Assembly: GCA_905211485.1 (NCBI GenBank)
Contig: CAJMAW010000001.1
Location: forward strand, 254 to 64,253
DNA: 64,000 bases
Direction of reading: 5' to 3'
DNA from: an uncultured Lentisphaeria bacterium
GTDB lineage: Bacteria > Verrucomicrobiota > Lentisphaeria > Victivallales > UBA1829
This document shows positions 5,904 through 57,085 of the stretch, piece by piece (the first letter of the stretch is position 1; the number at the start of each line of letters is the position of its first letter). The position numbers and the translations under genes were made by a program. The notes under the pieces were generated by a model, which saw only the letters and a list, made by a program, of their open reading frames with translations, was not told the DNA's origin and ran no database searches.

Positions 5904-5988
5904 TGGTGGTGGGGGATGGATTCGAACCATCGAAGGTGTAACCGGTAGATTTACAGTCTACTGCATTTGGCCGCTCTGCAACCCCACC
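5904..5988 (-). tRNA. tRNA-Tyr (anticodon GTA), CCA encoded
   Basis: Reverse complement reads GGTGGGGTTGCAGAGCGGCCAAATGCAGTAGACTGTAAATCTACCGGTTACACCTTCGATGGTTCGAATCCATCCCCCACCACCA. It has a 7-bp acceptor stem, the anticodon loop CTGTAAA, a long variable arm and a GTTCGAATC T-loop. Confidence 0.93.
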
Positions 5989-5999
5989 TGCAGAAAATC

Positions 6000-6073
6000 T
6001 GGAGCGGGTAGAGGGAATCGAACCCTCACAATTAGCTTGGAAGGCTAATGTTCTACCTTTGAACTATACCCGC
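6000..6073 (-). tRNA. tRNA-Gly (anticodon TCC), CCA encoded
   Basis: Reverse complement reads GCGGGTATAGTTCAAAGGTAGAACATTAGCCTTCCAAGCTAATTGTGAGGGTTCGATTCCCTCTACCCGCTCCA. Clean cloverleaf with anticodon loop CTTCCAA. Confidence 0.93.
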
Positions 6074-12236: not shown

Positions 12237-13076
12237 TCATCGCTGAGTCGGATTGGAGAACATGTTTTCGGAATTGGAGATGCCCCCGGAGGATCCCAAG
12301 TAAAAATGCCGACTGACGACGAGGGATGGGAAACACTGAGCATGACCGTCATAAAAGACCACGTTGACGAAGAGAGCGTGTCTTCCGCTGTAGAAGTCTT
12401 TTTTGTTGAAGTCGTTCCATTCCGGGATATTGACGCCTGCAATCTGATTGGAAAGCCTGGAATTGGTGATCTGTCCGGCACAGCTTCCGGCGCCGGGGAC
12501 ATAGGGATTGAAGCCGGACATGTCGCGCGGAGAGTCGAAGAGGAAGAGCCTCTTGGAGGGATAGCAGACGGAAGATATTTTCAATCCCCCTCCACGTCCT
12601 CCGCCCCAGGAACTGTCGGAATAAATCCATGTGGTTTGATCACCTCCTCCTGCGCTTCCGCAGCCGAAGATTCCGGCGTAATTGTCGCGTTCTCCGCCGG
12701 AAACGCAGCGGAGAATCTTGGACTTGCTGCCGCCGGGGAGGAATTTGCCGAGAATTTCATCATAACGGATCATATTGGGATAAGTCTGATAGAGTCTTTC
12801 CGGGACGACGTATTCGTCATAGGCGTTGATGTATAGGTATTGAAGCTGCCCGATCTGTTTCAGATTGTTGAGGCAGTGAATCCGCTTTCCCGCTTCCCTC
12901 GCCTGGTTGAGCGCGGGCAGGAGAAGCGCCGCGAGAAGCGCTATGACCGCTATGACGACCAGAAGTTCAATCAAAGTGAAGGGGCGTAGAAATAAAACGT
13001 TCCGCTTTGTCGGGATTCTCTTCCCTGAGCGGACGCCGTTTCCCGTTTTGTCGGCATTCCAGGCTCTTTTCTGCAT
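12237..13076 (-). CDS. Prepilin-type N-terminal cleavage/methylation domain protein, DUF1559 (H-X9-DG) family
   Basis: [44 protein letters not shown] at the N-terminus. C-terminal [15 protein letters not shown] fits H-X9-DG. Confidence 0.9.
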
Positions 13077-19720: not shown

Positions 19721-19811
19721 TGGCGGAGAGAAGGAGATTCGAACTCCTGGTCCGGAAAAACCGGACAACGGTTTTCGAGACCGCCGCCTTCGACCGCTCA
19801 GCCATCTCTCC
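19721..19811 (-). tRNA. tRNA-Ser (anticodon CGA), CCA encoded
   Basis: Reverse complement reads GGAGAGATGGCTGAGCGGTCGAAGGCGGCGGTCTCGAAAACCGTTGTCCGGTTTTTCCGGACCAGGAGTTCGAATCTCCTTCTCTCCGCCA. It has a long variable arm and the anticodon loop CTCGAAA. Confidence 0.93.
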
Positions 19812-28771: not shown

Positions 28772-30397
28772 ATGCGTGAAGAACAGCAGCAGAAAAACAC
28801 TCTGGATTCGTTGACCGAGCTTTTCGTGAGACGGAATCCCATGCGCTGCGCCTGCGTCACAATGACCGGGAGACAGAAACTCTGTTACGCCGCCGGTTTC
28901 CTCCTTCTTCTCTTCCTTCTGAAATTCCGCTGGGACTGTTTTGTGTTTCTTGTGAGCCTGTTTCTGATGCTCTGCTACGGCGCAGCCGCACTGCTGCGGA
29001 TGGGAGCGGCGCTGTTTTCCCTGGCGGGAAGCGGAGAGGTCCGTTTTGCGCGGGAGGAAACCAGGCGGACTCCCGATGAAGACCTGCCCGTCTATACCCT
29101 TCTTCTCCCGCTCTACCGGGAATCCGCCGTGGCGGAAAAAATTCTGGCGCGGATCGGAAGACTGGATTATCCGAAGGAAAAACTGGATGTGAAACTGCTC
29201 CTGGAAGCGGATGATTCCGAAACGCGCGCCGCACTTCAGAGACGTCCTCTGCCCGTCTGGTGCGAAATCGTGAATGTCCCGGACGGGCGTCCGCGGACCA
29301 AACCGCGCGCCTGCAATTACGGGCTCGCAGCTGCACGGGGGAAATACTGCGTCATTTATGATGCGGAGGACGCTCCTGAACCGGATCAGCTCCGGAAAGC
29401 CGTCCTTGCTTTTGAGAAGGAGGATTCGGACGGCAGACTTCTCTGCGTCCAGGCGAAACTCAATTATTACAATGCGCGCCAGAACTGGCTGACGAAGTTT
29501 TTCACCGTGGAATACAGCACGTATTTTGATCTGACTCTGGGCGGTCTTCAGCGATTCCGTCTTCCCATGCCGCTCGGCGGCACGTCCAATCACTTCAAGA
29601 CGCGCGAACTTCGGGAAATCGGGGGATGGGATCCCTTCAACGTCACGGAAGACTGCGACCTGGGAATCCGGATTTACGAGGACGGCTACCGGACCGTGCT
29701 GCTCGATTCCACCACCTGGGAGGAGGCCAATTCCCGCCTCTGGAACTGGATGCGCCAGCGTTCCCGCTGGGTGAAGGGGTTCATTCAGACGCATCTTGTC
29801 CATTTCAGGCATCCGCTGGAGACGATCCGGAGACTGAGCCTGCGCGGAGCTGCGGGGTGTTACATTCTTGTGGGCGGGTCCGTGCTGATGATGCTGCTGA
29901 ATCTGGTGTACTGGCCGCTGATTTTGCTGTACGGGGTTCTTCTGATTCACGGGATGGCTTCCGGGGAATCGCTGATGTCTTTGATGACGGGGCCGCATAC
30001 GGGGGAGGAACTGTATCGGGGGATTCAGATCGGGAATTTTTCCATCCGTGCGTGGCCGCTGATTTATGCGGGGGAGGGGGAGAATGTGTTTCAGTCGCTG
30101 ATGTCGCAGGTGTTTTTCTGCGGGAGCGTGCTGTTGTTTCTGTCCAATCTGTTTCTTGTGCTGGTGCATCTGGCTGCGTGTCTGCGGAGGAGATTTTATT
30201 TTCTGATACCGTGGGCGCTGCTGATGCCGTTTTACTGGGTTCTGATTTCCATCGGCGCGTGGAAGGGAGCCTGGCAGTTTGTCACGAATCCCTTCTACTG
30301 GGAAAAGACGATTCATGGACTGGATCACGGAACAAAATGGAATGCAATGGGATATACAGGAATAGAACATCATGGAGTCGAACATGCGGAACCTTGA
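28772..30397 (+). CDS. Membrane-embedded family-2 glycosyltransferase, processive beta-glycan-synthase type
   Basis: Two N-terminal and at least four C-terminal TM segments flank a GT-A domain. Motifs are YDAEDAP (DxD), VTEDCDLG (TED) and [10 protein letters not shown] (Q/RxxRW). Confidence 0.88.
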
Positions 30398-31115
30398 ATC
30401 CGGAGGAAAAAGCCGACCGTTTACATTGATTGAACTGCTTGTGGTGATTGCGATCATTGCACTGCTGGCGGGCATGCTCCTCCCGGCTCTGAGCGCGGCG
30501 AGGGAGAAGGCGCGCCAGACCAGCTGTCTCAACAATCTCAAGCAGCTCTCCATCGGGATACGGACGTACCAGATGGATTACAAGGACAGTTTCCCCTCAT
30601 GGCTTTCGCGTCTGGAACCTGCCTATATCAAGGACGGCAAGCTCTTCGCCTGTCCCTCCGATCCCAAGAAAAATGCCAACGACGACGGAAACTACAGCGA
30701 CAGCACTTGGAAACGCTCCTCCAACCGTCCCCCGGGATCCGACAGCTATGACACCATCGACGCCACCTTCGATTCCCCCGACAACAGTAAAGTCTGCCCC
30801 GCCTACGAACCCCCGAACGAAGATGTCCCCTGGGTCAGCTACATCTATGAATTCTGCGGCGGACTCTGGGCCTGGAGCGAAGGCGATTCCTACAATGAAG
30901 CGGGAGACAAGGTCCCACTGGGGGACGGTTCTTTTCAGAATGTCAAACTCAACGTTCTTCTCGCCCGTCCGGACTGGGCCAGCAAGCTCCCGATGATCCG
31001 CTGCTTCTGGCATGTCCGCAGCGAAAGTGTCCTGGAACCGGTGATGAATGTCTCCAGTCTGGGCAATGTGTTTTACAGCAAATCGGACTGGCAGCAGGGC
31101 ACCTGGTCGCCCTGA
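30372..31115 (+). CDS. Prepilin-type N-terminal cleavage/methylation domain protein (DUF1559-like, divergent C-terminus)
   Basis: [43 protein letters not shown]. Overlaps the GT2 stop by 26 nt (14 nt if the start is ATG 30384). Confidence 0.88.
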
Positions 31116-31325
31116 GCCTGAGCCGGGAAACTTTTTATATCAGAGTTGTGTCAAAGTAGATCAAAAGTTTTTTGTTTTTTTGAGATCAAAAGAAGTTATC
31201 CTCCTCCATTGCTTCCCTTGTCTCCCGTCCCGTTCCTTTCCTTCTCCGGAACGCAGTCGGAAAGATCCCGGGAAGAGGGAAAAAAAGAGAGCGGTGACGT
31301 GGGAGAAGAGGCAAGGCTCCTTCGG

Positions 31326-34145
31326 ATGACGATGAAATCAGACAAAATTTTTTCATATACTCTCTTATTCTTATGCGCCCTGTTTTTCCCGGCATTTTCC
31401 CGGGGAGCGGAGGAGTATGAATGGATTTTCCGCGACGCCGTGGGAAAGGAATCCGTGCTTGTTTCCATGCCGCAGTCCGGGGCGGAAGGGGAGGAAGCCG
31501 GAAATGAGAAGAACACTTCATCCGCGGAAGCTGCCGCTGAGGGAACTCCTTCCGGGAATGCTTCTCCGTCGGAGGAGAATTTGTCCGTTGCCTTCCGGAT
31601 GCCGGGGAACGTTCTGCTTTTCCGCCGTGCCGGACGTCTTTCCTTCCGGCATGAGAAAGAGCTTTTTGATTCTTCGCGCTTTTTTATGCGTGTCCGAGTC
31701 TCGGGACCTCTGAAGAAACCACTGAAAGCCTGGATTTTCGCGAAGGACAAGGACGGCAACTGGTATCAGACGGAAAAGGAATACACGCTTGTTCCCGGCG
31801 AATGGCAGACTCTGGAGGCTGTGACGGATCAGGCAGGGCGTCATTTTCTCCCCGTCGGGCACAATGGCGCCTGGAATGGATCCATTGCTTCCGGGGCCTA
31901 TGAGATCGGACTTTCCCTTTACGGAGAGGAAACGGAGTCCGGTCTGACCCTGGAATGTTCCGCGGCCGGATTTTCCGGGAAGAGGAAGCGTCCTCCGCTT
32001 CGGATAGTCCGCTGGGATCTTCCGGAAAAAATTGAGAAGAACCGGACCTTTGAATCGCGTTTCCAACTGAGCCGGGAGTATTTCAATCCCTTTGATCCGG
32101 ATGAGATAGAGGTGAATTATGAGATTGCGCTTCCGGGGAACACTCTTTCTGTCACGGCACCGTTTCATGAAATTTTCCGTCTTCCGGAAGAGTATTTCAA
32201 TCCTTTCCTTTTTCGGTGGAAGGAGATAGCAGCTTCTCTCAAGCTGACGCCCTCCTCCTCTTCTTCTTCAGCGCTTTTCAATCTGCGCTATCCCGCGTAT
32301 TACGGGCAGGATTTTGAAAGGTACCGGCATTTCACTCGGGAAAGCGTGTTTCCTTCCGGCGCGCCGTACTGGGCGTTCCGGATGATTCCGCATCAGAGCG
32401 GTCCGCTCCGTTTGCGTCTGCATGTGCTGGACCGGAGCGGGGAGGAAGCGGAGGAACTTTTTTCCGCATGGCAGGAAGTCCATGTGGAAGATTCCGCTTA
32501 TCCGGGAGTGATCCGGGTCAGCACGGAAAATCCCCGCTTCTATGAATTTTCGGACGGTTCCTTCTTCTATCCCGTCGGGCTGAACATTCACACGAATACG
32601 GACCTCCGGAGCGAATTCAAATTCAACTGGGGCCATCTCCCCGACCGCGGCACCTATGATTACGACGAATACTTTGAAGCCTGCGGCCGCGCCGGGATCA
32701 ATCTGATTGAAATCTGGATGGCTTCCTGGACCTACGCCCTCGAATGGGACAGCGCCAGAACCTATTATTACGGAGTCGGACGCTACAACATGGCGAATGC
32801 CTGGAAGCTGGATCATCTGTTCCGCCTTGCGCGTGACAACGGGATTTATCTCAACCTTGTTCTGGACGCGCACGGCAAGCTTTCCACCGCCAACGATCAG
32901 GAGTGGGAAGACAATCCCTACAACGCGCATGCCGCCTTCGCCGCTGCCAATGGCGGCTTTCTGAAACGCTCCCAGGATTTCTGGGTCCATCCGGATGCTC
33001 AGAGAGCCAATTGGAAACGGAACCGCTACATCCTGGCGCGCTGGGGCGCGGAAGCCAATCTTTACGCCGTGGAATTCTGGAGTGAAGTCAATCTCGTTGC
33101 AGACGGCTGGAACCGATACCGTCAGGGATATATGACCGCCTGGCACCGCAGAGCAGCGCGGGAGGTCCGGGAACTCGATCAAGGCGGACACTTGATGTCC
33201 ACGCACATCTGCGGCGATTCCGGCACCGTCCTGAGCATGCGCCAGCTCGGGATCGAGCCGCCCGAGTTCACCCATATCGCCTGCAACGCCTACCGCGGCA
33301 CGAACGTTCATATCGTCGACCAGCTCCGGAAACACGGGCGGGAGCTCTTCTTTGCTTCCAAGCCCATGATGATCATGGAGTACGGCGGGACAAACTTCGG
33401 GTCCAAGGACAATCAGGTCCGCGCGGACATTCACGGCGGACTCTGGGGCGCTCCGTTTACTTATCAGGCCGGGACTCCTTCGCTCTGGTGGCATGATTTC
33501 GTCCATATCAAAAACATGTATCCGCATTTTCTGGCGTTCTCCAAATTCATGAAAGGCGTGGACCTGCGAGAAGCGGGGAGTGTCCTGAGGGAAGGGCGGA
33601 TCCTTCTGGAGGAAAATGCGCCGCCTTTCACTGTCCCTTCCTGGAATCTGCCTCATGCGGGAACAAGTTCCGGAGGGGGGAAGGAGGACGCTTCTTCCCA
33701 CAGGGGGAACAGCAGGACAGAGGAGGACGGGGGATTCCGGCGCTTTCCGCATCAGTGGCAGCTTTCCTCTCTGCTGAACACCCCTGCTTCCCGCTATTTT
33801 GAACGCCGGATTGCGAGCTGGCTCCCCGCATCGGAGTACATGGATTTCTTTCTGATGCCTCTGGGATCGGACAAGGCGGTCGGCTGGGTGTATGACCGTG
33901 CTCAACTTCTGGTGTATCCAGCGGATCCCGGGGCGGCGCGTCTGTTCAGCGGAGTGCTTCTCCCGCTGGACCTGCCGCTGGAGCCGGGCGATTATCTGCT
34001 GCGTTTTTATGATACGCTGACCGGGGAGCCCGCATCTTCCTGCGTGATCCGTTGTGATGGAGCGCCGCGTCTGCTGAAACTGCCTCCGTTCCGTGTGGAT
34101 CTGGGGGTGAAACTCGATAAACTTCCCGGGGGGGGTGAAGCATGA
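31326..34145 (+). CDS. Secreted putative glycoside hydrolase (DUF5060-like Ig domain plus clan GH-A/GH5-like TIM barrel)
   Basis: Start set at ATG 31326 (MTMKSDKIFSYTLLFLCALFFPAFSRGAEE, signal peptide). FESRFQLSREYFNPFDPDEIEVNYEI is DUF5060-like. The barrel region includes FFYPVGLNIH...INLIEIWMASW. Candidate catalytic Glu residues lie in EFWSEVN and MIMEYGG. Confidence 0.7.
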   Translation: MTMKSDKIFSYTLLFLCALFFPAFSRGAEEYEWIFRDAVGKESVLVSMPQSGAEGEEAGNEKNTSSAEAAAEGTPSGNASPSEENLSVAFRMPGNVLLFRRAGRLSFRHEKELFDSSRFFMRVRVSGPLKKPLKAWIFAKDKDGNWYQTEKEYTLVPGEWQTLEAVTDQAGRHFLPVGHNGAWNGSIASGAYEIGLSLYGEETESGLTLECSAAGFSGKRKRPPLRIVRWDLPEKIEKNRTFESRFQLSREYFNPFDPDEIEVNYEIALPGNTLSVTAPFHEIFRLPEEYFNPFLFRWKEIAASLKLTPSSSSSSALFNLRYPAYYGQDFERYRHFTRESVFPSGAPYWAFRMIPHQSGPLRLRLHVLDRSGEEAEELFSAWQEVHVEDSAYPGVIRVSTENPRFYEFSDGSFFYPVGLNIHTNTDLRSEFKFNWGHLPDRGTYDYDEYFEACGRAGINLIEIWMASWTYALEWDSARTYYYGVGRYNMANAWKLDHLFRLARDNGIYLNLVLDAHGKLSTANDQEWEDNPYNAHAAFAAANGGFLKRSQDFWVHPDAQRANWKRNRYILARWGAEANLYAVEFWSEVNLVADGWNRYRQGYMTAWHRRAAREVRELDQGGHLMSTHICGDSGTVLSMRQLGIEPPEFTHIACNAYRGTNVHIVDQLRKHGRELFFASKPMMIMEYGGTNFGSKDNQVRADIHGGLWGAPFTYQAGTPSLWWHDFVHIKNMYPHFLAFSKFMKGVDLREAGSVLREGRILLEENAPPFTVPSWNLPHAGTSSGGGKEDASSHRGNSRTEEDGGFRRFPHQWQLSSLLNTPASRYFERRIASWLPASEYMDFFLMPLGSDKAVGWVYDRAQLLVYPADPGAARLFSGVLLPLDLPLEPGDYLLRFYDTLTGEPASSCVIRCDGAPRLLKLPPFRVDLGVKLDKLPGGGEA

Positions 34146-36838
34146 TGCCGGCGAAATATTCTGATTCTGATGCTTTGTCCGCATGGAGCCGCATTTTTTC
34201 TTTTCTGCTGCTTCTAGTGTTTTTCAGCGTTTTGGCCTCGGTCTTTTTCAGGGTTTCCGCGGCGGAGACTCCGGGAGACGGCAAGGAGGCTTTTCCCGCG
34301 CAGTCCCGGCAGCCGGAGTCTGAGGAAGGTCCGCCGCCCCTTCTTCCGTCGTCTGGTGAGCCGGGCGGCGTCCGAAGCGGGAAAGACGGCGGGGAGGAGG
34401 CCCCTGCCGCTTTCCCCTCCGCTGTCCCATGGCATTGCGGAGAGGCTCTTTACAGGCTGGAGGTGTTTCTTCCCGCATCCGGCAAAGCCGCGATTGCCGA
34501 CGACCGACGCATCTGCCTTCCCGCCGGATTCGGTCACGGGGTGAAAGTCTATGACGCATCGGGCCTGAAAATGCCTGCACATCAGTACTCCGACGGCGGA
34601 GTTCTTCTTCCTCCAGTAGACCGGGATTCTGTGCTTTATCTTTATTTCGGATTTTCCACCCCCTGCGAGCCGGAATCCATGCCGGACGCGCCTGGGAACG
34701 AAAGGCTGACCCTTTTCCAGAGCGAACAGCGCATGGCTTTGACTCCGGATCAGTGGCGTCCGACGGAAATATCCAAATGCAACGACGCCATCCGCAATAC
34801 CGCCCGTCATTCCAAACCTTGGCAGAAGTGCGACGGGGGAAAAGACTGCCCCCTTCTCCGCAACGTGTTTTCGCGCTGCCGGAATTCCCTGATGCCCTTC
34901 TGCGCCAGGAATGTGGCTTTCCGCGGATTTCATGCGAAGTCGGATCTGTATAAGACACCGTTCCCTTCGACTCTCAGCTGCTGCAAAACCTTTGCCATGC
35001 TTCCCGATTACGCACTTCTCCCGAAGAACCATTTCCCCTGCCGGAAAAATCAGACGGACTCCGCCCTGAGGAATTACTGGAAGGTTCGTGACCGCAACCT
35101 GGCGCAGATTGACCGGATCCGCCGGACCGATCCTGAAGAGGGCCTGGAAGAGACTCTCTTCGACGCTTTCAACGGGAATCCCCGGCGCCTGGAAAGCGGC
35201 CAGATTTTCCTGCCCAAGCGTCCCTTTGACACCGGCTGGCGCTTCACCGTTCTCTTCCGCGGGAATCTCTATGTTCCCGAGAGCGGTGAATATGAATTCA
35301 AAGTCAAGGCGAATTCCACCCGGATTCTGCGCATCGACGGGAAACGCGTGATCCGTTCCTTCGGCGAAACTCCGAACACCGAAATCATCGGGACGGAGGA
35401 ATCTGCCTGCATTCCGCTGGAAAAAGGGATTCATCCCCTGGAACTGGTCTATTGCAAACAGTCGGTGTCGACCTGGATTTCGGCTTCGTGGCGGAAGAAG
35501 GGGGAGGGGGATTTTGAAACGCTGAACGAAGAGAATTTTTCCCCCGCGACTCCGGCGGAACCCCTGTCTCTGAGCTCGCGGACGGGGCTCCGCTATCCGC
35601 TGCTGCTGCGTCATGATAAATACGCTCTGTACACGGGAAAATACGAAAAGTATTCTCTGAACGCCTTTGAATCCGCGGATGTGCCCGGCAATCCGGGAAT
35701 CCGTGCCTGGCGTCTGAACGGGAAGGAATATCCCGGGCAGATGAATGTGGTCGCGCTCAAGGAGGAAGCGGAGAATTCTTCCGCTGCGGGAAAGATGACT
35801 TCCGCTTCTCCGTCTGATGAAAAGGAGATGAAAATACAAAACGCGAACGATAACGGAAATGAAAGTGGAAGCGGGAATGGAAATGGGAATGGCAATGTGC
35901 TGTATGCTCTTCCGGATTCTCCGGATTTCGCGCCGCTTCCGATTTATCTTCCGGAGCGGAGCACGCCCCGGATTCCGGTTCGCCCGGATCTCTCGCTGAA
36001 GATCTGGGCGCCGTATTTTCTGTATGAGGACGAGACGCTGGATTTTTATACGGAAATTCGTTCGCGTCTTCCACTTGCGCTGAATGCGGGATTGAAGGCG
36101 TCGGCGGGAAGGAGCCTGACTTCTTCCCATGATGTGTTGAACCGTCCCCTGCTTCTTGCGGTGCCTTCGCTGCAGCAGGAGCATGTGGACCGTTTTGCGC
36201 AGGATGTGCTTCTGAAGTATCCGATGAAGGTGGACGGGGCGTCTTTCCGTTCGCAGCCTTCTTTTTCGGAATTTTCGCTGTTCATTCCCGGGCTGGAGTT
36301 TGAACGGAGGAAAGTGGCGGTGCTGCCGCTTCGTTTTCTCGGGCGTTTGAACTTTGCTGCAGATGGGTTTTACGATGGGGATATCCGGGTTGTTCCTCTT
36401 CTGCACCGTCCGACCCTGCATGATCTGAGAGCCTGGCAGCTGCCGAAAGCCATTTCCCGCGAATTCAATTCCGTGAAGAAGGTTCTGGTGATTGCCGAGG
36501 ATTTCGGTTCGTTCCGCGAAGATCTGGAAAAGGAACTGGCAAAAGACGCTGTGGCACTGGAATTCCTATCCTGGAAAAGGAGTCCGGCAGAGAGCGGGCG
36601 CGAGAGTCTGGAAAGCCTTCCCTCCCTTTTTGAAGGAATCCGGAAGAGTTCCGCTGATACGGCGCTTCTGATTCCCATGACTCAGTCCCGGCGTAAAACG
36701 GTTTCCATGCGTGATGAAGCGCGGGCGATCGCATTTCTTCTCCAGGCGCTGCGCGAACTTTCTTCTGTGCGTTCGATCAAGCTTGCGCCGCCGCTGCCCT
36801 CCCATCCTGATTTCGCGGATCCCGTTTCGGATGAATAA
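34142..36838 (+). CDS. Membrane-anchored or secreted PA14-domain protein with C-terminal SGNH-like region
   Basis: ATGA overlap with the upstream gene. N-terminal anchor IFSFLLLLVFFSVLASVFF. The PA14-like block is FTVLFRGNLYVPESGEYEFKVKANSTRILRIDGKRVI...HPLELVYCKQSVSTWISASWRKKG. The C-terminal region VLVIAEDFGS...ALLIPMTQS is reminiscent of the SGNH fold. Confidence 0.75.
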   Translation: MMPAKYSDSDALSAWSRIFSFLLLLVFFSVLASVFFRVSAAETPGDGKEAFPAQSRQPESEEGPPPLLPSSGEPGGVRSGKDGGEEAPAAFPSAVPWHCGEALYRLEVFLPASGKAAIADDRRICLPAGFGHGVKVYDASGLKMPAHQYSDGGVLLPPVDRDSVLYLYFGFSTPCEPESMPDAPGNERLTLFQSEQRMALTPDQWRPTEISKCNDAIRNTARHSKPWQKCDGGKDCPLLRNVFSRCRNSLMPFCARNVAFRGFHAKSDLYKTPFPSTLSCCKTFAMLPDYALLPKNHFPCRKNQTDSALRNYWKVRDRNLAQIDRIRRTDPEEGLEETLFDAFNGNPRRLESGQIFLPKRPFDTGWRFTVLFRGNLYVPESGEYEFKVKANSTRILRIDGKRVIRSFGETPNTEIIGTEESACIPLEKGIHPLELVYCKQSVSTWISASWRKKGEGDFETLNEENFSPATPAEPLSLSSRTGLRYPLLLRHDKYALYTGKYEKYSLNAFESADVPGNPGIRAWRLNGKEYPGQMNVVALKEEAENSSAAGKMTSASPSDEKEMKIQNANDNGNESGSGNGNGNGNVLYALPDSPDFAPLPIYLPERSTPRIPVRPDLSLKIWAPYFLYEDETLDFYTEIRSRLPLALNAGLKASAGRSLTSSHDVLNRPLLLAVPSLQQEHVDRFAQDVLLKYPMKVDGASFRSQPSFSEFSLFIPGLEFERRKVAVLPLRFLGRLNFAADGFYDGDIRVVPLLHRPTLHDLRAWQLPKAISREFNSVKKVLVIAEDFGSFREDLEKELAKDAVALEFLSWKRSPAESGRESLESLPSLFEGIRKSSADTALLIPMTQSRRKTVSMRDEARAIAFLLQALRELSSVRSIKLAPPLPSHPDFADPVSDE

Positions 36839-36841
36839 TTT

Positions 36842-37036
36842 GTGTCCCTGCTCCGAGAATACAAACGCGAGTATGGTGTGGACTTTCTGGAACTGAATGC
36901 CGATTACCGGAAAATGTCGGATTTTTCGTCTGCCTATGGACCGGAGAGACCCGCTCTGCCCGATTCGCTCTTCCCCGCAGGAAAATCACAGGAGATAGCG
37001 GAACTTCTCCATGCCTATCTGCTGAATCGGAGATGA
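36842..37036 (+). CDS. 64-codon ORF in the same frame as the PA14 gene, separated from it by a single TAA; probable C-terminal continuation
   Basis: 36842 minus 34142 equals 2700, which is divisible by 3, so the frames match. The sequence FVSLLREYKREYGVDFLELNADYRKM...DSLFPAGKSQEIAELL looks like the last blocks of an SGNH-type domain. Confidence 0.4.
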   Translation: MSLLREYKREYGVDFLELNADYRKMSDFSSAYGPERPALPDSLFPAGKSQEIAELLHAYLLNRR

Positions 37037-51378: not shown

Positions 51379-52206
51379 TCAGCCTGCGGACTGAGTGTAG
51401 CAAACCGAACAGCCCGTGTCTTCTTCGGTCGCATGTCCAAGTGTATCGGAGAGTGCGGGGACTTCGATGAGGCGGTCATAGAAGGCGCCTCTGGCTGTCG
51501 CAGTATAAGTTTCCATTCCGCCGTCGGCATTGACCAAGTTCAGATAGCTGCCGCCGTCCATGTTGTTGCAGAAGCCGACGATGGGTTCGTCGAAGCCCGA
51601 CATTTCATTCATCACAGGATTCACGCCGTGACGGAATTCCACATGTTTGAAACCGCTGGTCGTTCCCAGTCCCATGCTCGATCCTTCGCTCATGAACACT
51701 CCGCCCGGATTCTTTTCATAGTTCCTGGAATCCGATCCCAGATAATGCGGATTGATCCCGTAGGAAGCTCCGTATCCGTTCACAGCAACGGTCTTGAGGG
51801 GCTTCAGATCATACGCCGTATCCGGTCCCATTGGAATGCTTGGACACCACCACTGTTTCACATAAGGCCCGTCTCCGCCGTACCCTGTATTGAGAGACTG
51901 AGAGGCAGCCTGAGCATATCCGAGTTTCTCCAGAACAGCCCAGGTCATATAACGGTTGGCTCCATCCGAAGCGAAATCCACCTGGACGCCTCTCGGAGGC
52001 ATGAACTGATTGTCCGCATAATAAATCGCGAACATGGTAAAGTTCTGTTTCATGTTGGAAACGCAGTTGATGGCCTGTGCCTTCGCACGTGCCGCCGCCA
52101 GCGCTGGCATCAGCATCCCCGCCAAAATGGCGATGATCGCTATGACGACAAGTAGTTCAATCAGTGTGAAACTTTGACTTCTGAAAAGACCGTGATTCTT
52201 TTTCAT
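51379..52206 (-). CDS. Prepilin-type N-terminal cleavage/methylation domain protein (DUF1559-like)
   Basis: [42 protein letters not shown]. Confidence 0.88.
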   Translation of the reverse strand: MKKNHGLFRSQSFTLIELLVVIAIIAILAGMLMPALAAARAKAQAINCVSNMKQNFTMFAIYYADNQFMPPRGVQVDFASDGANRYMTWAVLEKLGYAQAASQSLNTGYGGDGPYVKQWWCPSIPMGPDTAYDLKPLKTVAVNGYGASYGINPHYLGSDSRNYEKNPGGVFMSEGSSMGLGTTSGFKHVEFRHGVNPVMNEMSGFDEPIVGFCNNMDGGSYLNLVNADGGMETYTATARGAFYDRLIEVPALSDTLGHATEEDTGCSVCYTQSAG

Positions 52207-52845: not shown

Positions 52846-52957
52846 CTGCAGTATTTCCGATGTTTTTCCCCCTTCTCATTTTGTATGCCGCCGCCCCCTG
52901 TGGTGAGTGTTCAGGGCGGCGGCTTGCAGAGAGAACGGGGAGGAAAAAACGACAGGA

Positions 52958-55900
52958 TTATTTGTCTTCCTCCTTGTCGTAAACGGCGCTGTAGTCCTTG
53001 ACGCGGACCGAGGGCTCGGACTTCTTGAAATCCAGCAGATCGAGTTTGTTTCTGTTGACTTCGATTCCGATGCCGCGGAGTTTGATCGGCATGTCGATCT
53101 TCTTGTTTCCGCCTTCGGAGACCCACTGCTCGGAGACTGGTCCGGGGCTGTGGTCGTTGAAGAGATCGGTATCGCGGAGAGGATGCGCCACGAAGTTCCA
53201 TCCGTCGAAGTTGACGGAGAGATTTCCTGGCCAGTCAAGGATGTCGCATCCCCATCCGGAGGTGCTGAGAGTCTTCCAGACTTCGCCTTCCGCATCTTCG
53301 ATTTCAAAGAGGATCCGTCCCCAGCTGGAGTTTCCTTTCACCCAGACTCCGACCGCGGCGGGATTGCCTTCGACGGGAACGGGTTCCTTGAACATCAGGT
53401 GGGTGTATTCCGAGATGTATTTCCCGGTGTCCTTGTTTTTGGAGAGGTCCAGAGTCGCCTCGATGCAGTCTCCTTTTTCCTCGTCCTTGACCGCCTTCAC
53501 GATGAAATCGGAGGGTTTGGTGATCGGGAGGAATTTGGTGTGCGTGCTTTCATAGCTCTTGTCCGGAGCGGCGGTGATGCCGTCGAGCGAGCTGAGGGGG
53601 GCGACGACTTTGGATTTTGCGGCGCGAGCCTCGTCCTTCGGGAACGCTCTGTCAAGAATCGAGACCGATTTCACTCCCTTGTCCGAGAGCAGATAGACCG
53701 GAGACGTTCCCGCATCCACGGTGATCTCATTTCCGGACTTCCTGCTTTCCGCCCCATACATCGTGAATTCCCTGACGGACGCTTTCCCGTTGAATTCAAC
53801 CTTGAATTTCACCGTCCCGCGGGAAGCCCAGAGCGCGATGGCCTTCTGGCCGTCTGCGCGATTGAATTCCAGAGCATAGACCGTGGTGGATCCGGTCGGG
53901 ATCTGACGGTTGAATTTGACGCGGTCAAACACATTGGTCAGCGCCGCATACGCTACATACGCGCGTTTCGGATACACATACGGCCCGCGGGTGATGATTC
54001 CGCTTCCGCCCCAGAGTCCGTTGTAGTATCCGCTGGAACAGTCGAAGAAGATCCCGGGGCTGATCAGGAAGAAATCATTGGCCAGGGAGATCAGCACGTC
54101 GCGCATATACCATTCCGCCTGCTGCTGTTCCCCCATGTCGCGTTCGCAGCGGTAGGTGAATTCCCAGGATCCGTTCGCGGGGATTTTCCGCTTGCCGAGC
54201 TTTTCGGCAATGTCCTTGGAAATCATCATGCCCTGGAAACCGACTTCCTGCAGCTTTTCCGGGACAATGACCTGCGAAGGCGTTTCGATCCCGATGTAGT
54301 CATAGTACTGCGGATCGGCTCCTCCGCGCAGCGGGAGTGTGGTAGCTCCGATGGAAGCGCTGCTGTTCCCGATCTGGATTTTCAGTTTCGGGAAATGCTT
54401 CCGGATGATTTTGCCGGCGGCGTTGATGTACTTTCCGAGGTTTTCCGCACGCTCTTTGAGCGCCGGATCGGAAGGCACGTCCATGTTGAGCATTTCTTCC
54501 GGAATACCGTAGCCGGGAGCGGTTTCATGCCAGATGAGGATGTGATCGGATTTCGGGCGTTTGTCCAGATTTTCCTGAATCGTCATCCTGGCATATTCCT
54601 CGCCGGAGACGGTGATCCTCTTTTTCGGATCCTTCGGATCGCGGATCTGTTTTTCCTTGAACTCGCCCGTTGCGGGGTCGAGATCTCTGATTCCGAGGGG
54701 GAACATCAGATTCAGCGTGGTGGTGACGTTGAAACGGTCCATTTCCTCCTGGGAAAGTTTCGCAGTTGCCCAGCTGGCCTTGCGGATTCCGGCTTTCTGG
54801 AACAGGGGACCGGCGACTTCAAAATCGCCGAGACTGCCGTGTGCGTCGAACCACCATGTCGCAAAGGGGGAGGTGTATTTATCCGCTTTGCGTTCGTCTT
54901 TCGCAAGAATGGCGAAGCGCGCCGGATGTGTCAGAATCACGTTGCCTTTTTCATCGGCAAGAGTCATGTTCAGGTCGAAGTACCCGACTTTGTCTTTCGG
55001 AAGGGAGATTTTGAGGGTTTTCTCCTCTCCGGCTTTGGCGAACTGCCAGTCAGCGGAAGAGCCCGCGACTTTTTTCACGTCAGCGTCAAACGCTTCCCAG
55101 ACCAGTTTCCCTTTGGCCGGACGCAGAGACTTCAGCACTACCGATGTCTCCGGATTTTCCGCCTGGGTGAAGACGTTCCCCGGCTGTTTCTGCTCGATAT
55201 CCATCAGAATCGGCGCCTGCTCCAGCGTGATTCCGAAGATCTGCACCGCACTTGTGGAATACGGCGTGGGTTTCCCCGTGCGGTCGATCTGTTCAAAGTT
55301 CTCCCACGGTTTCCCGAAGAAGTCCAGGTTGAGATGCTTTTGTCTTGCGGGAAGATCCAGCACGCTTCCCGTCCCGAGTTCAATCTCGGCAAGATAGAGC
55401 GGTGTTTCCACGCCTTTGATCTTCACGCTTCCGACCTGTTTCATGTTGGCGGGCAGGGCTTCTCCCTTGCGCGGGAAGACGGTGTGCGTATCGGCCATCA
55501 TGTTCTGGCCGCTTCCATTCGGGTAGATGTAGTATCCGATGCGAGTCGTCAGGAACGGATCCTTTGCGGGGTCGGGATCCACGGCGCAGAGGATCCAGGC
55601 CTTGGTATAGTCAGCCGGAGGAAGCAGGTAATGCACTTCGCTCAGGAGTCCGTCGAAGGGCGAACGTCCCAGATATTCCTCGACTTCCAGCGCCCATTCC
55701 CCCATTCCCTGGCGTGCAATGCCGACATCGGAGGAATGTTCCGGGGATGCCACGAACATCGGAATCCCGTTTATATTCGAAAAACCCTCTTTCAGACTGC
55801 TTTGCGCATCAACGAATGCCTTGGCTTTCGGCCGGGCGGTGATGTCAAGCGGATAGTATTTCGGATCGGCTTTCAGGGCCGGGGAATCCGAACGGGCGTC

Positions 55901-57085
55901 CTTGTAGGAGGCACCCTTCTTGAAGAAGAACTCTGCACTCTGCAAGGCTGCGCCCTTGTCGTTCAGGATTCCCGCGTAAGAGCCGTCCAGGAAGAGCCGG
56001 GTATTCTGACCGTCCCGGCGGAATTCGATGCGGAGGGGATGTTCCGAGGCTTTCGGCAGTTTCTCCCAGTCGCGGATGATGTCCACATATTCCGGAACGA
56101 CGCTGTAGCTGCTGTGATAGCGCCGCAGAAGGGGGCGGACATAAACGTTCTGAAGAAGATTCTTATCTCCTTTGACACTCAGGAAAGCATCAGGCAGATC
56201 GATTTTCGTTCCTTTCGCCTGTTCGCCGACAGGGGCCATCAGGGAATGCTTCCGGATCCCTTCTGTGTTGATGGAAAGTTCCGTCTCCGTCCCGTCGCTC
56301 CACTTGAGAATTCCTTTGACCGCATCCTTTTCCGTTCCCGTGATCACGGTGATTCCTCCGGCTTTTTCAGGACGGATGGTCACGGGAGTGCTTTCCGATG
56401 CGGCTGTCTGGAATCCTTTTTTGTCCGTCAGACTTTTCAGGGAGGCTGTCAGATCCAACACGCTGCTGTCCTTCAGTGCCCCGGGGCTGCGGAGAAGGAA
56501 ATGCGATACCGCAAACTGTTTCTCCGGTTCCGCAAAAATATTGAAGCCCTTCAGCTGGAAGGAACCCAATGCGGCAGTGAAGAGTTTTTTATACTGTCTG
56601 TCCGCAGTCACATAGACATCCAGTTTGCCTCCGGAGAATTTGAGAGCCGCCTTTTCCCATTGTCTGGTCCGATGCGGCACCTGGAAGGCCGTTTTGGCTG
56701 TGTCGAGCGACACTTCCTTCGGGGTGAAGACAACGACTTTATCCTTGCCGTCCGCTCCCTTCAGATATACTTTGAATTCTCCCTTGTCGTTATTGAAGCG
56801 GAAATCGAAAAGCAGATCGAAGGCGGAAAGGGTTTTCCCGGCAGCTCCTTGAAAATCCTTGAAGATGAATCCGGGTTCCTTTGCATTGACATTCAGTTCC
56901 GCATTGTCCGCCCAGATCGGATCGTTGCCGACCGAGAATCCTTTCCCCTCCGGACACAACGGCGCCTGTTCCGTGTAGTTCCGGAAGTTCTCCCGGAAAT
57001 ACTCGGCGGGTTCCGCTGCTGAGAGGTACGGAATGACAGGGAGTGAAAGTCCTGCAAGCAGAATCGCATTGCAAATCTTCGGCAT
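52958..57085 (-). CDS. Very large secreted protein (1375 aa), putative multi-domain glycan-active protein
   Basis: Signal peptide MPKICNAILLAGLSLPVIPYLSAAEP. The N-terminal region is beta-sandwich-like. The central region has alternating beta/alpha character (IQIGNSSASIG...YIGIETPSQ...WEFTYRCERDMG). The C-terminal region is beta-rich. No family recognised with certainty. Confidence 0.8.
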   Translation of the reverse strand: MPKICNAILLAGLSLPVIPYLSAAEPAEYFRENFRNYTEQAPLCPEGKGFSVGNDPIWADNAELNVNAKEPGFIFKDFQGAAGKTLSAFDLLFDFRFNNDKGEFKVYLKGADGKDKVVVFTPKEVSLDTAKTAFQVPHRTRQWEKAALKFSGGKLDVYVTADRQYKKLFTAALGSFQLKGFNIFAEPEKQFAVSHFLLRSPGALKDSSVLDLTASLKSLTDKKGFQTAASESTPVTIRPEKAGGITVITGTEKDAVKGILKWSDGTETELSINTEGIRKHSLMAPVGEQAKGTKIDLPDAFLSVKGDKNLLQNVYVRPLLRRYHSSYSVVPEYVDIIRDWEKLPKASEHPLRIEFRRDGQNTRLFLDGSYAGILNDKGAALQSAEFFFKKGASYKDARSDSPALKADPKYYPLDITARPKAKAFVDAQSSLKEGFSNINGIPMFVASPEHSSDVGIARQGMGEWALEVEEYLGRSPFDGLLSEVHYLLPPADYTKAWILCAVDPDPAKDPFLTTRIGYYIYPNGSGQNMMADTHTVFPRKGEALPANMKQVGSVKIKGVETPLYLAEIELGTGSVLDLPARQKHLNLDFFGKPWENFEQIDRTGKPTPYSTSAVQIFGITLEQAPILMDIEQKQPGNVFTQAENPETSVVLKSLRPAKGKLVWEAFDADVKKVAGSSADWQFAKAGEEKTLKISLPKDKVGYFDLNMTLADEKGNVILTHPARFAILAKDERKADKYTSPFATWWFDAHGSLGDFEVAGPLFQKAGIRKASWATAKLSQEEMDRFNVTTTLNLMFPLGIRDLDPATGEFKEKQIRDPKDPKKRITVSGEEYARMTIQENLDKRPKSDHILIWHETAPGYGIPEEMLNMDVPSDPALKERAENLGKYINAAGKIIRKHFPKLKIQIGNSSASIGATTLPLRGGADPQYYDYIGIETPSQVIVPEKLQEVGFQGMMISKDIAEKLGKRKIPANGSWEFTYRCERDMGEQQQAEWYMRDVLISLANDFFLISPGIFFDCSSGYYNGLWGGSGIITRGPYVYPKRAYVAYAALTNVFDRVKFNRQIPTGSTTVYALEFNRADGQKAIALWASRGTVKFKVEFNGKASVREFTMYGAESRKSGNEITVDAGTSPVYLLSDKGVKSVSILDRAFPKDEARAAKSKVVAPLSSLDGITAAPDKSYESTHTKFLPITKPSDFIVKAVKDEEKGDCIEATLDLSKNKDTGKYISEYTHLMFKEPVPVEGNPAAVGVWVKGNSSWGRILFEIEDAEGEVWKTLSTSGWGCDILDWPGNLSVNFDGWNFVAHPLRDTDLFNDHSPGPVSEQWVSEGGNKKIDMPIKLRGIGIEVNRNKLDLLDFKKSEPSVRVKDYSAVYDKEEDK

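What the first reader, a model, noticed from the sequence alone, without database searches (positions are those of the whole stretch)
28772..37036. Candidate novel glycan synthesis/processing module: membrane GT2 synthase + pseudopilin-like protein + GH-A-like hydrolase + PA14/SGNH-like protein
Seen in sequence: there are four consecutive same-strand genes. The first is a polytopic GT2 with DxD, TED and RQRSRW motifs, the architecture of processive synthases such as BcsA, PgaC, NodC and hyaluronan synthase. Its stop is overlapped by a prepilin-N-terminal/DUF1559-like gene. After a 210-bp spacer comes a signal-peptide protein with a DUF5060-like Ig domain and a TIM-barrel region with plausible acid/base and nucleophile Glu residues (EFWSEVN, MIMEYGG). 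Its stop overlaps (ATGA) a membrane-anchored PA14 protein with an SGNH-like tail. Established knowledge: known synthase-dependent exopolysaccharide systems pair the synthase with a c-di-GMP receptor, a periplasmic TPR scaffold or hydrolase and an outer-membrane porin, and none of those is recognisable here. Inference: this could be an undescribed synthase-dependent polymer system in which a pseudopilin-like protein and PA14/SGNH proteins handle the polymer in the periplasm. Alternatively it could be a coupled glycan remodelling unit typical of PVC bacteria.
Basis: partly seen in the sequence, partly recalled or inferred. Interest (0 to 1): 0.7.

Follow-up and report, generated by a model that had tools for sequence, protein, structure and literature searches.

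The report
Lentisphaerota polysaccharide synthase four-gene module
Four adjacent genes in a gut Victivallales genome form a conserved, lineage-specific unit that probably makes and trims a beta-linked envelope or extracellular polysaccharide, with helper proteins not seen in the studied systems; no polymer has been shown.

Summary
The four genes are present as described. One thing was missed: the fourth gene has an in-frame TAA stop at 36836-36838, 66 codons before the family's normal end at 37036.

- **G1** is a BcsA-like membrane GT2 with DAED, TED and QRSRW motifs.
- **G2** is a pilin-type N_methyl/DUF1559 protein.
- **G3** has no Pfam hit. It is a clear homologue of ManDH5, a solved GH5 beta-mannanase, and both catalytic Glu are invariant.
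- **G4** has a PA14 domain and a GDSL/SGNH-derived tail that lacks the catalytic Ser.

G1-G2 and G3-G4 are two tight pairs. In Lentisphaerota they lie together in about half of the assessable loci, in at least four arrangements. There is also a true G3::G4 domain fusion and a single ORF joining G1 and G3.

Outside the PVC bacteria, G1's relatives carry N-terminal MshEN (c-di-GMP-binding) domains, and some sit beside BcsB. The Lentisphaerota branch has neither.

Best reading: a synthase-dependent beta-glycan system with an unusual partner set. This makes it a new variant of a known kind. The polymer, its export route and the roles of G2 and G4 are inferred, not shown.

The parts
28772..30397 (+). 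G1: membrane GT2, BcsA-like synthase (541 aa). Two N-terminal and about four C-terminal hydrophobic segments. DAED at 29360-29371, TED at 29645-29653, QRSRW at 29756-29770.
   Evidence: Pfam Glyco_trans_2_3 81.9 bits and Glyco_tranf_2_3 73.3 bits. Best NCBIfam hits are CelA and PgaC, both far below cut-off. PDB BcsA 4hg6/5ej1 E 3e-10 over residues 96-431. A family profile matches E. coli BcsA 7lby at E 1.6e-13. Hydropathy, motif coordinates. Homologues are 50-70% identical across Lentisphaerota and 38-50% in other phyla.
30372..31115 (+). G2: pilin-type protein (247 aa) with the FTLIE N-terminal helix (30420-30434) and its own Cys-containing globular domain. Its start overlaps G1's stop; an alternative start is at 30384.
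   Evidence: Pfam N_methyl 26.5 bits; DUF1559 43.4 bits over profile positions 2-36 only. TIGR02532 19.9 bits against a cut-off of 16.3; GspG 37.6 bits against a cut-off of 88.85. Orthologues next to the GT2 align over the full length at 32-47% identity, E 1e-28 to 1e-52. The two paralogues in this window match only the first ~45 aa.
31116..31322 (+). 207-nt spacer between G2 and the likely G3 start.
   Evidence: Sequence read. No Rfam family at gathering score. One weak promoter-like match begins just past the spacer's end, inside G3's first codons (31332-31361), and is not above chance expectation.
31323..34145 (+). G3: secreted multidomain GH5-like glycanase (940 aa counted from MTMKSD). 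Order of parts: signal peptide; extra beta-sandwich (~aa 87-220); DUF5060-type Ig domain; (beta/alpha)8 barrel with acid/base E588 (33084-33086) and nucleophile E686 (33378-33380); disordered S/G-rich stretch (aa 768-838); C-terminal beta-sandwich.
   Evidence: PDB 9gmj/9gpc E 1e-45. AF2 model pLDDT 81, pTM 0.81. Foldseek top hits are ManDH5, a GH5 beta-D-mannanase of Dictyoglomus thermophilum, at E 1e-39 and TMt 0.86-0.88. E588, E686 and S587 are invariant in 33 homologues. Coordinates.
34142..36838 (+). G4: secreted or anchored PA14 protein (898 aa here). Order of parts: N-terminal hydrophobic segment; beta domain; Cys-rich helical region; PA14 (35240-35515); NG-rich low-complexity stretch (35852-35896); beta-sandwich; GDSL/SGNH-derived alpha/beta domain starting at about 36482.
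   Evidence: Pfam PA14 32.9 bits. 41 of 50 family members hit PA14 and 10 of 50 hit Lipase_GDSL_2, in the C-terminal domain. Block I reads xDFG, with no Ser, in all 50 members; the block V His is present only in some. The AF2 model is poor (pLDDT 54) except for the C-terminal third. Foldseek gives local matches to PA14 of MpAFP and to SsfX3, which is a beta-sandwich plus GDSL fold.
36836..37036 (+). Premature in-frame TAA (36836-36838), followed by the 66 codons that form the normal end of G4 in relatives.
   Evidence: Translation. L002 and P0241/P0242 read SDEKFVSLL and reach 966-969 aa.

Best explanation
The four genes form a Lentisphaerota-specific version of a synthase-dependent polysaccharide system.

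**Proposed roles.**
- G1 is a BcsA-like inverting GT2 in the inner membrane. It polymerises a beta-linked glycan from a nucleotide sugar and threads it across the membrane.
- G2 is a dedicated pilin-fold protein co-translated with G1. It sits in the inner membrane by its N-terminal helix. It acts as the periplasmic partner of the synthase, the place BcsB holds in some relatives.
- G3 is a periplasmic retaining GH5-type endo-glycanase specific for the product. It trims or releases the chain, as BcsZ or PslG do.
- G4 is physically coupled to G3. It binds the chain through PA14 and a catalytically dead SGNH-like domain.

**Shown:** the domain identities, the catalytic residues, the conserved neighbourhood and the fusions.

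**Inferred:** processivity, the polymer, the roles of G2 and G4, and how or whether the chain crosses the outer membrane. A beta-mannan-like or other beta-1,4 glycan is the leading guess for the polymer.

In this window's strain G4 is truncated by a nonsense codon.
For: **G1.** It has DAED, TED and QRSRW motifs. It aligns with BcsA from the GT core into the membrane helices.

**G1-G2 pair.** G2 follows G1 directly in 13 of 15 Lentisphaerota genome loci, and also in L082 and L165. G2 is an orthologous subfamily of its own.

**G3.** It is homologous to the GH5 mannanase ManDH5. The acid/base residue aligns with ManDH5's E303 (mutated to Q in 9gpc). Both Glu are invariant.

**G3-G4 pair.** G4 follows G3 in 29 of 31 assessable metagenome loci.

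**Linkage of the pairs.** The two pairs are linked in the window/L002, L003, L004, L088, L090, L093, L094 and L125 (G1-G2-G3-G4). They are linked in L021 and L082 (G3-G4-G1-G2). They are divergent in L008, L013, L015, L085, L110, L115, L124 and L129. L014 reads G1-G3-G4.

**Fusions.** The L008 ORF (1688 aa) and P0278 (1657 aa) are G3::G4 domain fusions with no signal peptide between the parts. P0237/L083 is one 1308-aa ORF joining G1 to G3 through G3's hydrophobic leader.

**Chemistry.** Inverting GT2 enzymes make beta-linkages, and GH5 enzymes cleave beta-linkages. This consistency rests on established knowledge, not on a test here.

**Context.** No catabolic genes are conserved around G3-G4. 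Relatives of G1 elsewhere carry MshEN domains and neighbour BcsB, which marks the family as exopolysaccharide synthases. Xag-type clusters are genetically tied to biofilm polysaccharide (PMC3609779, PMC4643136).
Against: - No product, activity or expression data exist.
- No outer-membrane exporter, TPR scaffold or c-di-GMP receptor is in the module.
- The pairs are unlinked in about half of the loci: GT2 was within reach in only 7 of 15 loci with at least 8 kb on both sides. In one 5.6-Mb genome they lie 0.5 Mb apart.
- (Q/R)xxRW also occurs in non-processive lipid glucosyltransferases (my own knowledge). Pfam Glyco_transf_21 hits G1 weakly.
- G3 has Ser where GH5 has the Asn of the N-E motif, so its substrate may not be mannan.
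- The G1::G3 ORF keeps a signal-like helix that could be cleaved.
- DUF1559-type genes are very numerous in these genomes, with three in this window alone.
- No structure of G1 was predicted, so the channel is unverified.
Confidence: 0.55

Rival explanations
1. The product stays in the periplasm or envelope, as osmoregulated periplasmic glucans or cyclic glucans do. G1 makes a short beta-glycan. G3 acts as a processing or transglycosylating enzyme that sets the length or the branching. G4 holds the chain. No outer-membrane exporter is needed.
For: No porin, TPR protein or secretin is conserved next to the genes in any of about 160 loci. The synthase and the glycanase can lie in one ORF. G3 is always secreted, and it is fused to G4 in some lineages. 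OpgH/OpgG and Cgs are precedents (my own knowledge).
Against: G1's relatives elsewhere pair with BcsB and c-di-GMP receptors, which are typical of secreted biofilm polymers. PA14 and extra beta-sandwich domains suit long chains. Nothing here tests where the product is located.
Confidence: 0.2
2. These are two unrelated units that are often neighbours. G1-G2 makes some envelope glycan. G3-G4 is a catabolic enzyme pair for dietary beta-mannans or similar glycans, in a phylum rich in glycan degraders.
For: The pairs are separate in about half of the loci and lie 0.5 Mb apart in one genome. The nearest characterised relative of G3 is a degradative mannanase. PA14 is common in glycosidases.
Against: Linkage recurs in at least four different arrangements, which vertical inheritance alone does not explain. 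A G1-G3 single ORF exists. L014 has G3-G4 directly after G1. No transporter, regulator or other glycosidase is conserved beside G3-G4; the neighbours are a tRNA synthetase and a BrkB-like protein. Looser GT2 plus G3-like links also appear in a Planctomycetota MAG (L025) and in unclassified contigs (L136, L142, L153, L155, L160).
Confidence: 0.15
3. G1 is not processive. It puts a single sugar on a lipid (diacylglycerol, ceramide or polyprenyl phosphate), making a glycolipid or a lipid-linked donor.
For: There is a weak Glyco_transf_21 hit, 26.5 bits. A xagB-like gene was auto-annotated as beta-monoglucosyldiacylglycerol synthase (PMC4643136). In other phyla the commonest neighbour is a polytopic membrane protein with faint similarity to putative GT-C transferases.
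Against: G1 has two N-terminal and about four C-terminal membrane segments and aligns with BcsA past QxxRW. No ArnC, GtrB or DPM-type family is hit at E <= 0.01. Relatives neighbour BcsB and carry MshEN domains. The coupling to an endo-glycanase-like GH5 and to PA14 implies a chain.
Confidence: 0.08

Closest known systems
Bacterial cellulose synthase system (BcsA-BcsB-BcsZ, with BcsC)
   Same: Both have a membrane GT2 with D, DxD, TED and QxxRW motifs. G1 aligns with BcsA from the GT core into the membrane region. Both have a periplasmic partner gene translationally coupled to the synthase, and a dedicated periplasmic glycanase in the same cluster.
   Different: This module has no PilZ, BcsB or BcsC. 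CelA scores 55.7 bits against a cut-off of 699. The partner is a pilin-fold protein. The glycanase is GH5-like, not GH8. There is an extra PA14/dead-SGNH protein.
Xag-type clusters (xagABCD of Xanthomonas; bcsB-xagBCD-like cluster of stalk-forming iron oxidisers)
   Same: One source (JGI) names several 52-54% identical homologues of G1 'glycosyltransferase XagB'. xagB-like genes sit next to BcsB-like genes (PMC4643136), as G1's non-PVC relatives do. The Xag polysaccharide supports biofilm (PMC3609779). Xanthomonas biofilm is dispersed by a beta-1,4-mannanase (PMC8042644), which echoes the mannanase-like G3.
   Different: No Xanthomonas XagB sequence could be compared here, so the link is a lead, not a test. 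XagA, XagC and XagD have no counterparts in the module. The Xag polymer is chemically undefined.
MshEN-fused GT2 synthases, including NfrB of the E. coli N4 glycan receptor system
   Same: Both belong to the BcsA-like GT2 class. About 45 of G1's non-PVC relatives have MshEN-like regions in the same frame. NfrB is gated by c-di-GMP through MshEN (PMC8669472).
   Different: MshEN is N-terminal in G1's relatives and C-terminal in NfrB. G1 and all its PVC relatives lack it. No NfrA-like porin is present. The NfrB model is hit only through the MshEN part.
ManDH5, GH5 beta-D-mannanase of Dictyoglomus thermophilum (PDB 9gmj, 9gpa, 9gpc-9gpg)
   Same: Both have a DUF5060-type Ig domain, a (beta/alpha)8 barrel and a C-terminal beta-sandwich. 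Sequence match is E 1e-45; Foldseek gives E 1e-39 and TMt 0.86-0.88. The acid/base and nucleophile Glu align.
   Different: Structural alignment identity is 21-22%. G3 has an extra N-terminal beta-sandwich and a disordered insert. It has an invariant Ser in place of the Asn before the acid/base Glu. Its genomic context is biosynthetic. Its substrate is untested.
Periplasmic SGNH-fold proteins of synthase-dependent systems (AlgX and AlgJ of alginate, WssI of acetylated cellulose); recalled from memory
   Same: Both combine an SGNH-type fold with a carbohydrate-binding beta domain in a periplasmic protein encoded beside a synthase.
   Different: The G4 family has no Ser nucleophile, and most members lack the His. 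No MBOAT partner is present. Homology to AlgX was not tested.

Membership tests
Processive membrane GT2 synthases (BcsA/PgaC/HAS/NodC class) | GT-A core with D, DxD, catalytic TED and QxxRW motifs | tested here: met
   DAED 197-200, TED 292-294 and QRSRW 329-333 are present and invariant in 22 homologues. Pfam GT2 families hit.
Processive membrane GT2 synthases (BcsA/PgaC/HAS/NodC class) | Membrane helices on both sides of the GT domain that form a glycan channel | tested here: inconclusive
   Hydropathy gives 2 N-terminal and about 4 C-terminal segments. The alignment with BcsA extends to residue 431. No structure of G1 was predicted, so the channel was not seen.
Processive membrane GT2 synthases (BcsA/PgaC/HAS/NodC class) | Makes a polymer rather than a single transfer | not testable with these tools
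   Needs biochemistry.
Cellulose synthase BcsA (equivalog) | Scores above the curated CelA/BcsA model cut-off; C-terminal PilZ; BcsB partner | tested here: not met
   TIGR03030 scores 55.7 bits against a cut-off of 699.1; NF008558 scores 30.3 against 992. No PilZ or BcsB is in the module.
Polyprenyl-phosphate sugar GT2 (ArnC/GtrB/DPM1 type) | N-terminal GT domain with only C-terminal helices and no QxxRW; matches to those family models | tested here: not met
   No such NCBIfam or Pfam family at E <= 0.01. QRSRW and N-terminal helices are present.
XagB | Orthology to Xanthomonas XagB | not tested
   The only evidence is a source's name on homologues P0061 and P0094.
Type IV pilin / T2SS pseudopilin | N-terminal methylation motif with hydrophobic helix and Glu at +5 | tested here: met
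   PF07963 scores 26.5 bits (cut-off 21.2). TIGR02532 scores 19.9 (cut-off 16.3). FTLIE lies at aa 17-21.
Type IV pilin / T2SS pseudopilin | Gly at -1 for prepilin peptidase cleavage | tested here: not met
   Pro is at -1 here. Only 1 of 15 G2 orthologues has Gly. Unrelated paralogues in these genomes also lack it, so this is a trait of the lineage, not of G2.
Type IV pilin / T2SS pseudopilin | Membership of a named pseudopilin equivalog (GspG and similar) | tested here: not met
   GspG scores 37.6 bits against a cut-off of 88.85. All matches cover the N-terminal ~60 aa only.
DUF1559 (PF07596) | Match along the DUF1559 profile | tested here: inconclusive
   The score of 43.4 bits is above the cut-off, but only profile positions 2-36 of 268 match. 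The globular domain is specific to G2 orthologues.
GH5 / clan GH-A glycoside hydrolase | (beta/alpha)8 barrel with acid/base Glu and nucleophile Glu | tested here: met
   E588 aligns with the ManDH5 residue mutated in the E303Q entries, and E686 with its nucleophile. Both are invariant in 33 sequences. The barrel is modelled at high confidence, with TMt 0.86-0.88 to ManDH5.
GH5 / clan GH-A glycoside hydrolase | Asn directly before the acid/base Glu (N-E motif) | tested here: not met
   Ser587 is invariant in the G3 family (WSE), where ManDH5 has WNE.
GH5 / clan GH-A glycoside hydrolase | Pfam Cellulase (PF00150) match | tested here: not met
   The window protein has no hit at E <= 10. Homologue P0202 reaches 26.0 bits against a cut-off of 23.5.
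beta-Mannanase activity | Hydrolysis of beta-1,4-mannan | not testable with these tools
   Only homology to ManDH5 is available.
PA14 domain | Pfam PA14 above cut-off | tested here: met
   32.9 bits against a cut-off of 24, at aa 367-458. 41 of 50 family members hit it. There is a local structural match to MpAFP PA14.
SGNH/GDSL hydrolase | Homology to the GDSL fold | tested here: inconclusive
   The window protein has no hit. 10 of 50 relatives hit PF13472, and one is above cut-off (35.7 against 32.9), over profile positions 53-163 only. A weak Foldseek match to SsfX3 was found. The AF2 model is of low confidence.
SGNH/GDSL hydrolase | Block I Ser nucleophile and block V His | tested here: not met
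   Block I reads xDFG with no Ser in all 50 members. His is present in a minority and absent in the window's lineage. The block V region lies beyond the premature stop in the window.

The most novel reading that the evidence does not exclude
A pilin-fold protein (G2) has been recruited as the obligatory periplasmic subunit of a processive polysaccharide synthase. It would take the place BcsB holds in some related systems. Alternatively, it would couple the synthase to a pseudopilus-type machine that pushes the polymer out. Together with a GH5-PA14-pseudo-SGNH complex, this would be a previously undescribed way of building and exporting a synthase-dependent polysaccharide in PVC bacteria. It would also give a first function to a member of the huge DUF1559 family.
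Probability: 0.2. Interest if true: 0.8.

Novelty: new variant of a known kind. Interest (0 to 1): 0.5.

Why it matters
**An undescribed system in an exopolymer-producing phylum.** Lentisphaerota include gut Victivallis and marine Lentisphaera, which from memory are known for slime and transparent exopolymer. No polysaccharide synthesis system has been described for the phylum in the literature I could search.

**A compact set of candidate genes.** The module offers four genes, natural fusions that point to a physical complex, and a cognate glycanase that could serve as a probe for the polymer.

**A broader, uncharacterised family.** G1 belongs to a widespread family of MshEN-fused GT2 synthases. 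They occur in Actinomycetota, Chloroflexota, Clostridia, candidate phyla and others. Their common neighbour is a polytopic membrane protein, and some also have BcsB. Their product is unknown, and the Lentisphaerota branch has shed both the c-di-GMP domain and BcsB.

**A first function for DUF1559.** If G2 proves to be a synthase subunit, it would give a first function to one member of the very large DUF1559 pilin-like family of PVC bacteria.

Tried and rejected
- **P0077.** It carries GT2 plus N_methyl/DUF1559 Pfam domains and looked like a G1::G2 fusion. The GT2 part breaks off at residue 444 and only the pilin's first ~65 aa follow. It is frameshift-like and was not used as evidence.
- **Gly at -1.** I asked whether the missing Gly before FTLIE marks G2 as an uncleaved anchor. 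Unrelated paralogues in these genomes lack Gly too, so it does not discriminate.
- **Periplasmic C-terminus of G1.** I inferred this from the G1::G3 ORF and charge counts. I dropped it because the fusion keeps G3's hydrophobic leader (aa 531-556) as an extra membrane pass.
- **Literature on the PDB homologue.** Searches for DUF5060, 9GMJ and ManDH5 found no paper. The function comes from the PDB entry titles only.
- **Signals in the DNA.** Promoter and terminator scans were not above expectation. Rfam found only three tRNAs, elsewhere in the window.
- **Catabolic context for G3-G4.** None was found. The conserved neighbours are housekeeping genes.
- **Literature on a Lentisphaerota system.** A search for a described polysaccharide system in this phylum found nothing relevant.


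Full report
**1. What is there**

The window comes from an uncultured Victivallales (Lentisphaerota) genome. The reference MAG contig CAKUDG010000001.1 (L002) carries the same genes: G1 at 100%, G3 at 92% and G4 at 94% identity.

Four ORFs lie on the + strand: G1 28772-30397, G2 30372-31115, G3 31146-34145 (likely start at the MTMKSD signal peptide, 31323) and G4 34142-36838. G2's start lies inside the end of G1. G3 and G4 overlap as ATGA. A 207-nt spacer separates G2 from G3. The spacer holds no Rfam family and no convincing promoter or terminator.

**2. The four proteins**

*G1.* G1 hits the GT2 Pfam families. Its best curated-family hits are CelA and PgaC, both far below their cut-offs. Its best solved relatives are BcsA of Rhodobacter and E. 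coli, and the alignment runs from the GT core into the membrane region. Hydropathy shows two N-terminal and about four C-terminal membrane segments. No polyprenyl-phosphate transferase family is hit.

*G2.* G2 has the pilin N-terminal methylation motif. Its DUF1559 match covers only the first 36 profile positions. The rest of the protein is a Cys-containing domain shared only with the genes that follow the GT2 in other genomes: full-length matches at 32-47% identity, E 1e-28 to 1e-52. Two other pilin-like genes in this window match only in the helix.

*G3.* G3 has no Pfam hit at all. It matches PDB 9gmj at E 1e-45. A confident AlphaFold model (pLDDT 81, pTM 0.81) superposes on that entry with TMt 0.86-0.88. 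The PDB titles identify the entry as ManDH5, a GH5 beta-D-mannanase of Dictyoglomus thermophilum. The Glu of EFWSEVN aligns with the residue changed in the E303Q entries. The Glu of MIMEYGG aligns with the nucleophile. Both are invariant in 33 homologues. So is a Ser that replaces the usual Asn of the N-E motif. G3 adds an N-terminal beta-sandwich and a disordered insert to the ManDH5 plan.

*G4.* G4 has a PA14 domain. Its family is small: 57 cluster representatives at E <= 1e-30 among 1.84 billion. It evolves fast, at 22-36% identity between loci. Ten of 50 members hit Lipase_GDSL_2 in the C-terminal alpha/beta domain. A weak fold match is to SsfX3, which is a beta-sandwich plus GDSL fold. 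However, block I reads xDFG without Ser in all 50 members, and the block V His survives only in some. The tail is therefore SGNH-derived and, by the canonical residues, inactive.

In the window, G4 ends at a TAA where relatives have Lys.

**3. Is the arrangement conserved?**

*Anchoring on G1.* In one genome per species, G2 follows G1 directly in 13 of 15 Lentisphaerota loci. G3 and G4 lie within the held flanks in 7 of those.

*Anchoring on G3.* In metagenomes, G4 follows G3 in 29 of 31 assessable close loci. The GT2 is within reach in 7 of 15 loci with at least 8 kb on both sides.

*Arrangements.* The order differs between lineages:
- G1-G2-G3-G4;
- G3-G4-G1-G2 (L021 and L082, the latter from a 5.69-Mb genome);
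- divergent G4-G3 | G1-G2 (for example L008, L013 and L015);
- G1-G3-G4 (L014).

In another 5.6-Mb genome the two pairs lie 0.5 Mb apart.

*Fusions.* There are two kinds. G3::G4 occurs as one periplasmic polypeptide (L008 ORF and P0278). G1 and G3 occur in one 1308-aa ORF (P0237/L083), in which G3's hydrophobic leader is kept as an extra membrane pass.

*Other neighbours.* Genes conserved beside G3-G4 in the split lineage are housekeeping genes (a Glu/Gln-tRNA synthetase and a BrkB-like protein), not catabolic ones.

*Reading.* There are two tight pairs. They are repeatedly kept or brought together, and partly fused. That is more than vertical inheritance of one gene order would give.

**4. 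The wider family of G1**

G1 has 38-50% identical relatives in Planctomycetota, Verrucomicrobiota, Chloroflexota, Actinomycetota, Clostridia, Ignavibacteria, candidate phyla and others.

Outside the PVC group, about 45 of them carry one to three MshEN-type c-di-GMP-binding regions in the same frame, upstream of the GT domain. Of these loci, 37 have a polytopic membrane protein next door, and 11 have a BcsB (PF03170) gene.

All Lentisphaerota versions lack the MshEN region, and none has BcsB.

One source names some homologues 'glycosyltransferase XagB'. Xag-like genes beside BcsB-like genes have been noted in stalk-forming iron oxidisers (PMC4643136). The Xanthomonas xag cluster supports biofilm (PMC3609779). 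That biofilm is dispersed by a beta-1,4-mannanase (PMC8042644). I could not compare a Xanthomonas XagB sequence, so this remains a lead.

**5. How it most likely works**

G1 is most likely an inverting, processive synthase for a beta-linked glycan. G3 is a retaining beta-glycanase of the GH5 type. The two chemistries fit each other (established knowledge of GT2 and GH5), as BcsA and BcsZ do.

I therefore read the module as a synthase-dependent polysaccharide system. The c-di-GMP domain of its relatives, and the BcsB some of them carry, are absent here. The partner set is a dedicated pilin-fold protein (G2), a product-specific glycanase (G3) and a PA14/pseudo-SGNH chain-binding protein (G4).

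The polymer may be mannan-like, given ManDH5 and the Xanthomonas parallel. The invariant Ser for Asn next to the acid/base Glu warns that the sugar at the -1 subsite may differ.

Nothing in the module explains passage of the outer membrane. A periplasmic product is therefore a serious rival. Two independent units, or a lipid glycosyltransferase, are less likely.

**6. Novelty**

I found no description of this module, of the G2 or G4 families, or of the MshEN-GT2/BcsB family's product in the searchable literature.

The kind of system is known: a synthase plus a periplasmic glycanase. The partner set and the loss of the usual regulatory domain are new, so I call it a new variant of a known kind.

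Interest is moderate. It would be high only if the pilin-like protein proves to be a synthase subunit or an export device.

Noticed in passing
window 36836-37036: G4 carries a premature in-frame TAA; relatives and the species' reference MAG have AAA (Lys). The last 66 codons of the family's C-terminal domain are cut off in this strain. The cause could be a nonsense mutation, a population variant or an assembly error.
   Followed up: yes
L026, L034, L049, L078 and about 45 other loci (for example L026:8948-16786): This is a widespread, apparently uncharacterised system outside the PVC bacteria. It combines a GT2 synthase fused to 1-3 N-terminal MshEN c-di-GMP-binding regions with a polytopic membrane protein (no Pfam hit; faint LA_3751-like similarity). 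It often also has BcsB, and sometimes a GGDEF-like or response-regulator gene. It occurs in Actinomycetota, Chloroflexota, Clostridia, Ignavibacteria and candidate phyla.
   Followed up: partly
window 12237-13076 (-) and 51379-52206 (-): Two further pilin-type (FTLIELLVV) DUF1559-like genes lie in the same 64-kb window. They share only the N-terminal helix with G2.
   Followed up: partly
window 30408-30434; L003-L021, L082: In these Lentisphaerota genomes the residue before the FTLIE pilin motif is almost never Gly, in G2 orthologues and unrelated paralogues alike. Classical prepilin peptidases require Gly at that position. Either these proteins are not cleaved, or the lineage's peptidase has a different specificity.
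   Followed up: partly
window 33624-33836 (G3 aa 768-838); P0198 (L082:10001-13912), P0212: G3 has a disordered S/G-rich insert between the barrel and the last beta-sandwich. In some relatives the same place holds an insert of about 500 aa with coiled-coil character, giving proteins of 1269-1303 aa.
   Followed up: no
window 35852-35896: An Asn/Gly-rich low-complexity stretch in G4 (NGNESGSGNGNGNGN) differs in length between close strains (P0241, P0242) and is absent in more distant homologues.
   Followed up: no
L025:9809-16532 (Schlesneria MAG); L136, L142, L153, L155, L160: Looser versions of the association occur outside Lentisphaerota or in unclassified contigs. They combine a GT2 of the same family (43-47% identity), a distant G3-like protein (26-31%) and a pilin-like gene within a few kb, without a G4 homologue.
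   Followed up: partly
window 52907-57085: Very long ORFs lie on both strands of the same stretch (1371 aa on +, 1375 aa on -). At most one can be a gene. Not examined.
   Followed up: no
window 5907-6073 (-), 19724-19811 (-): Three tRNA genes are the only Rfam matches in the window.
   Followed up: no
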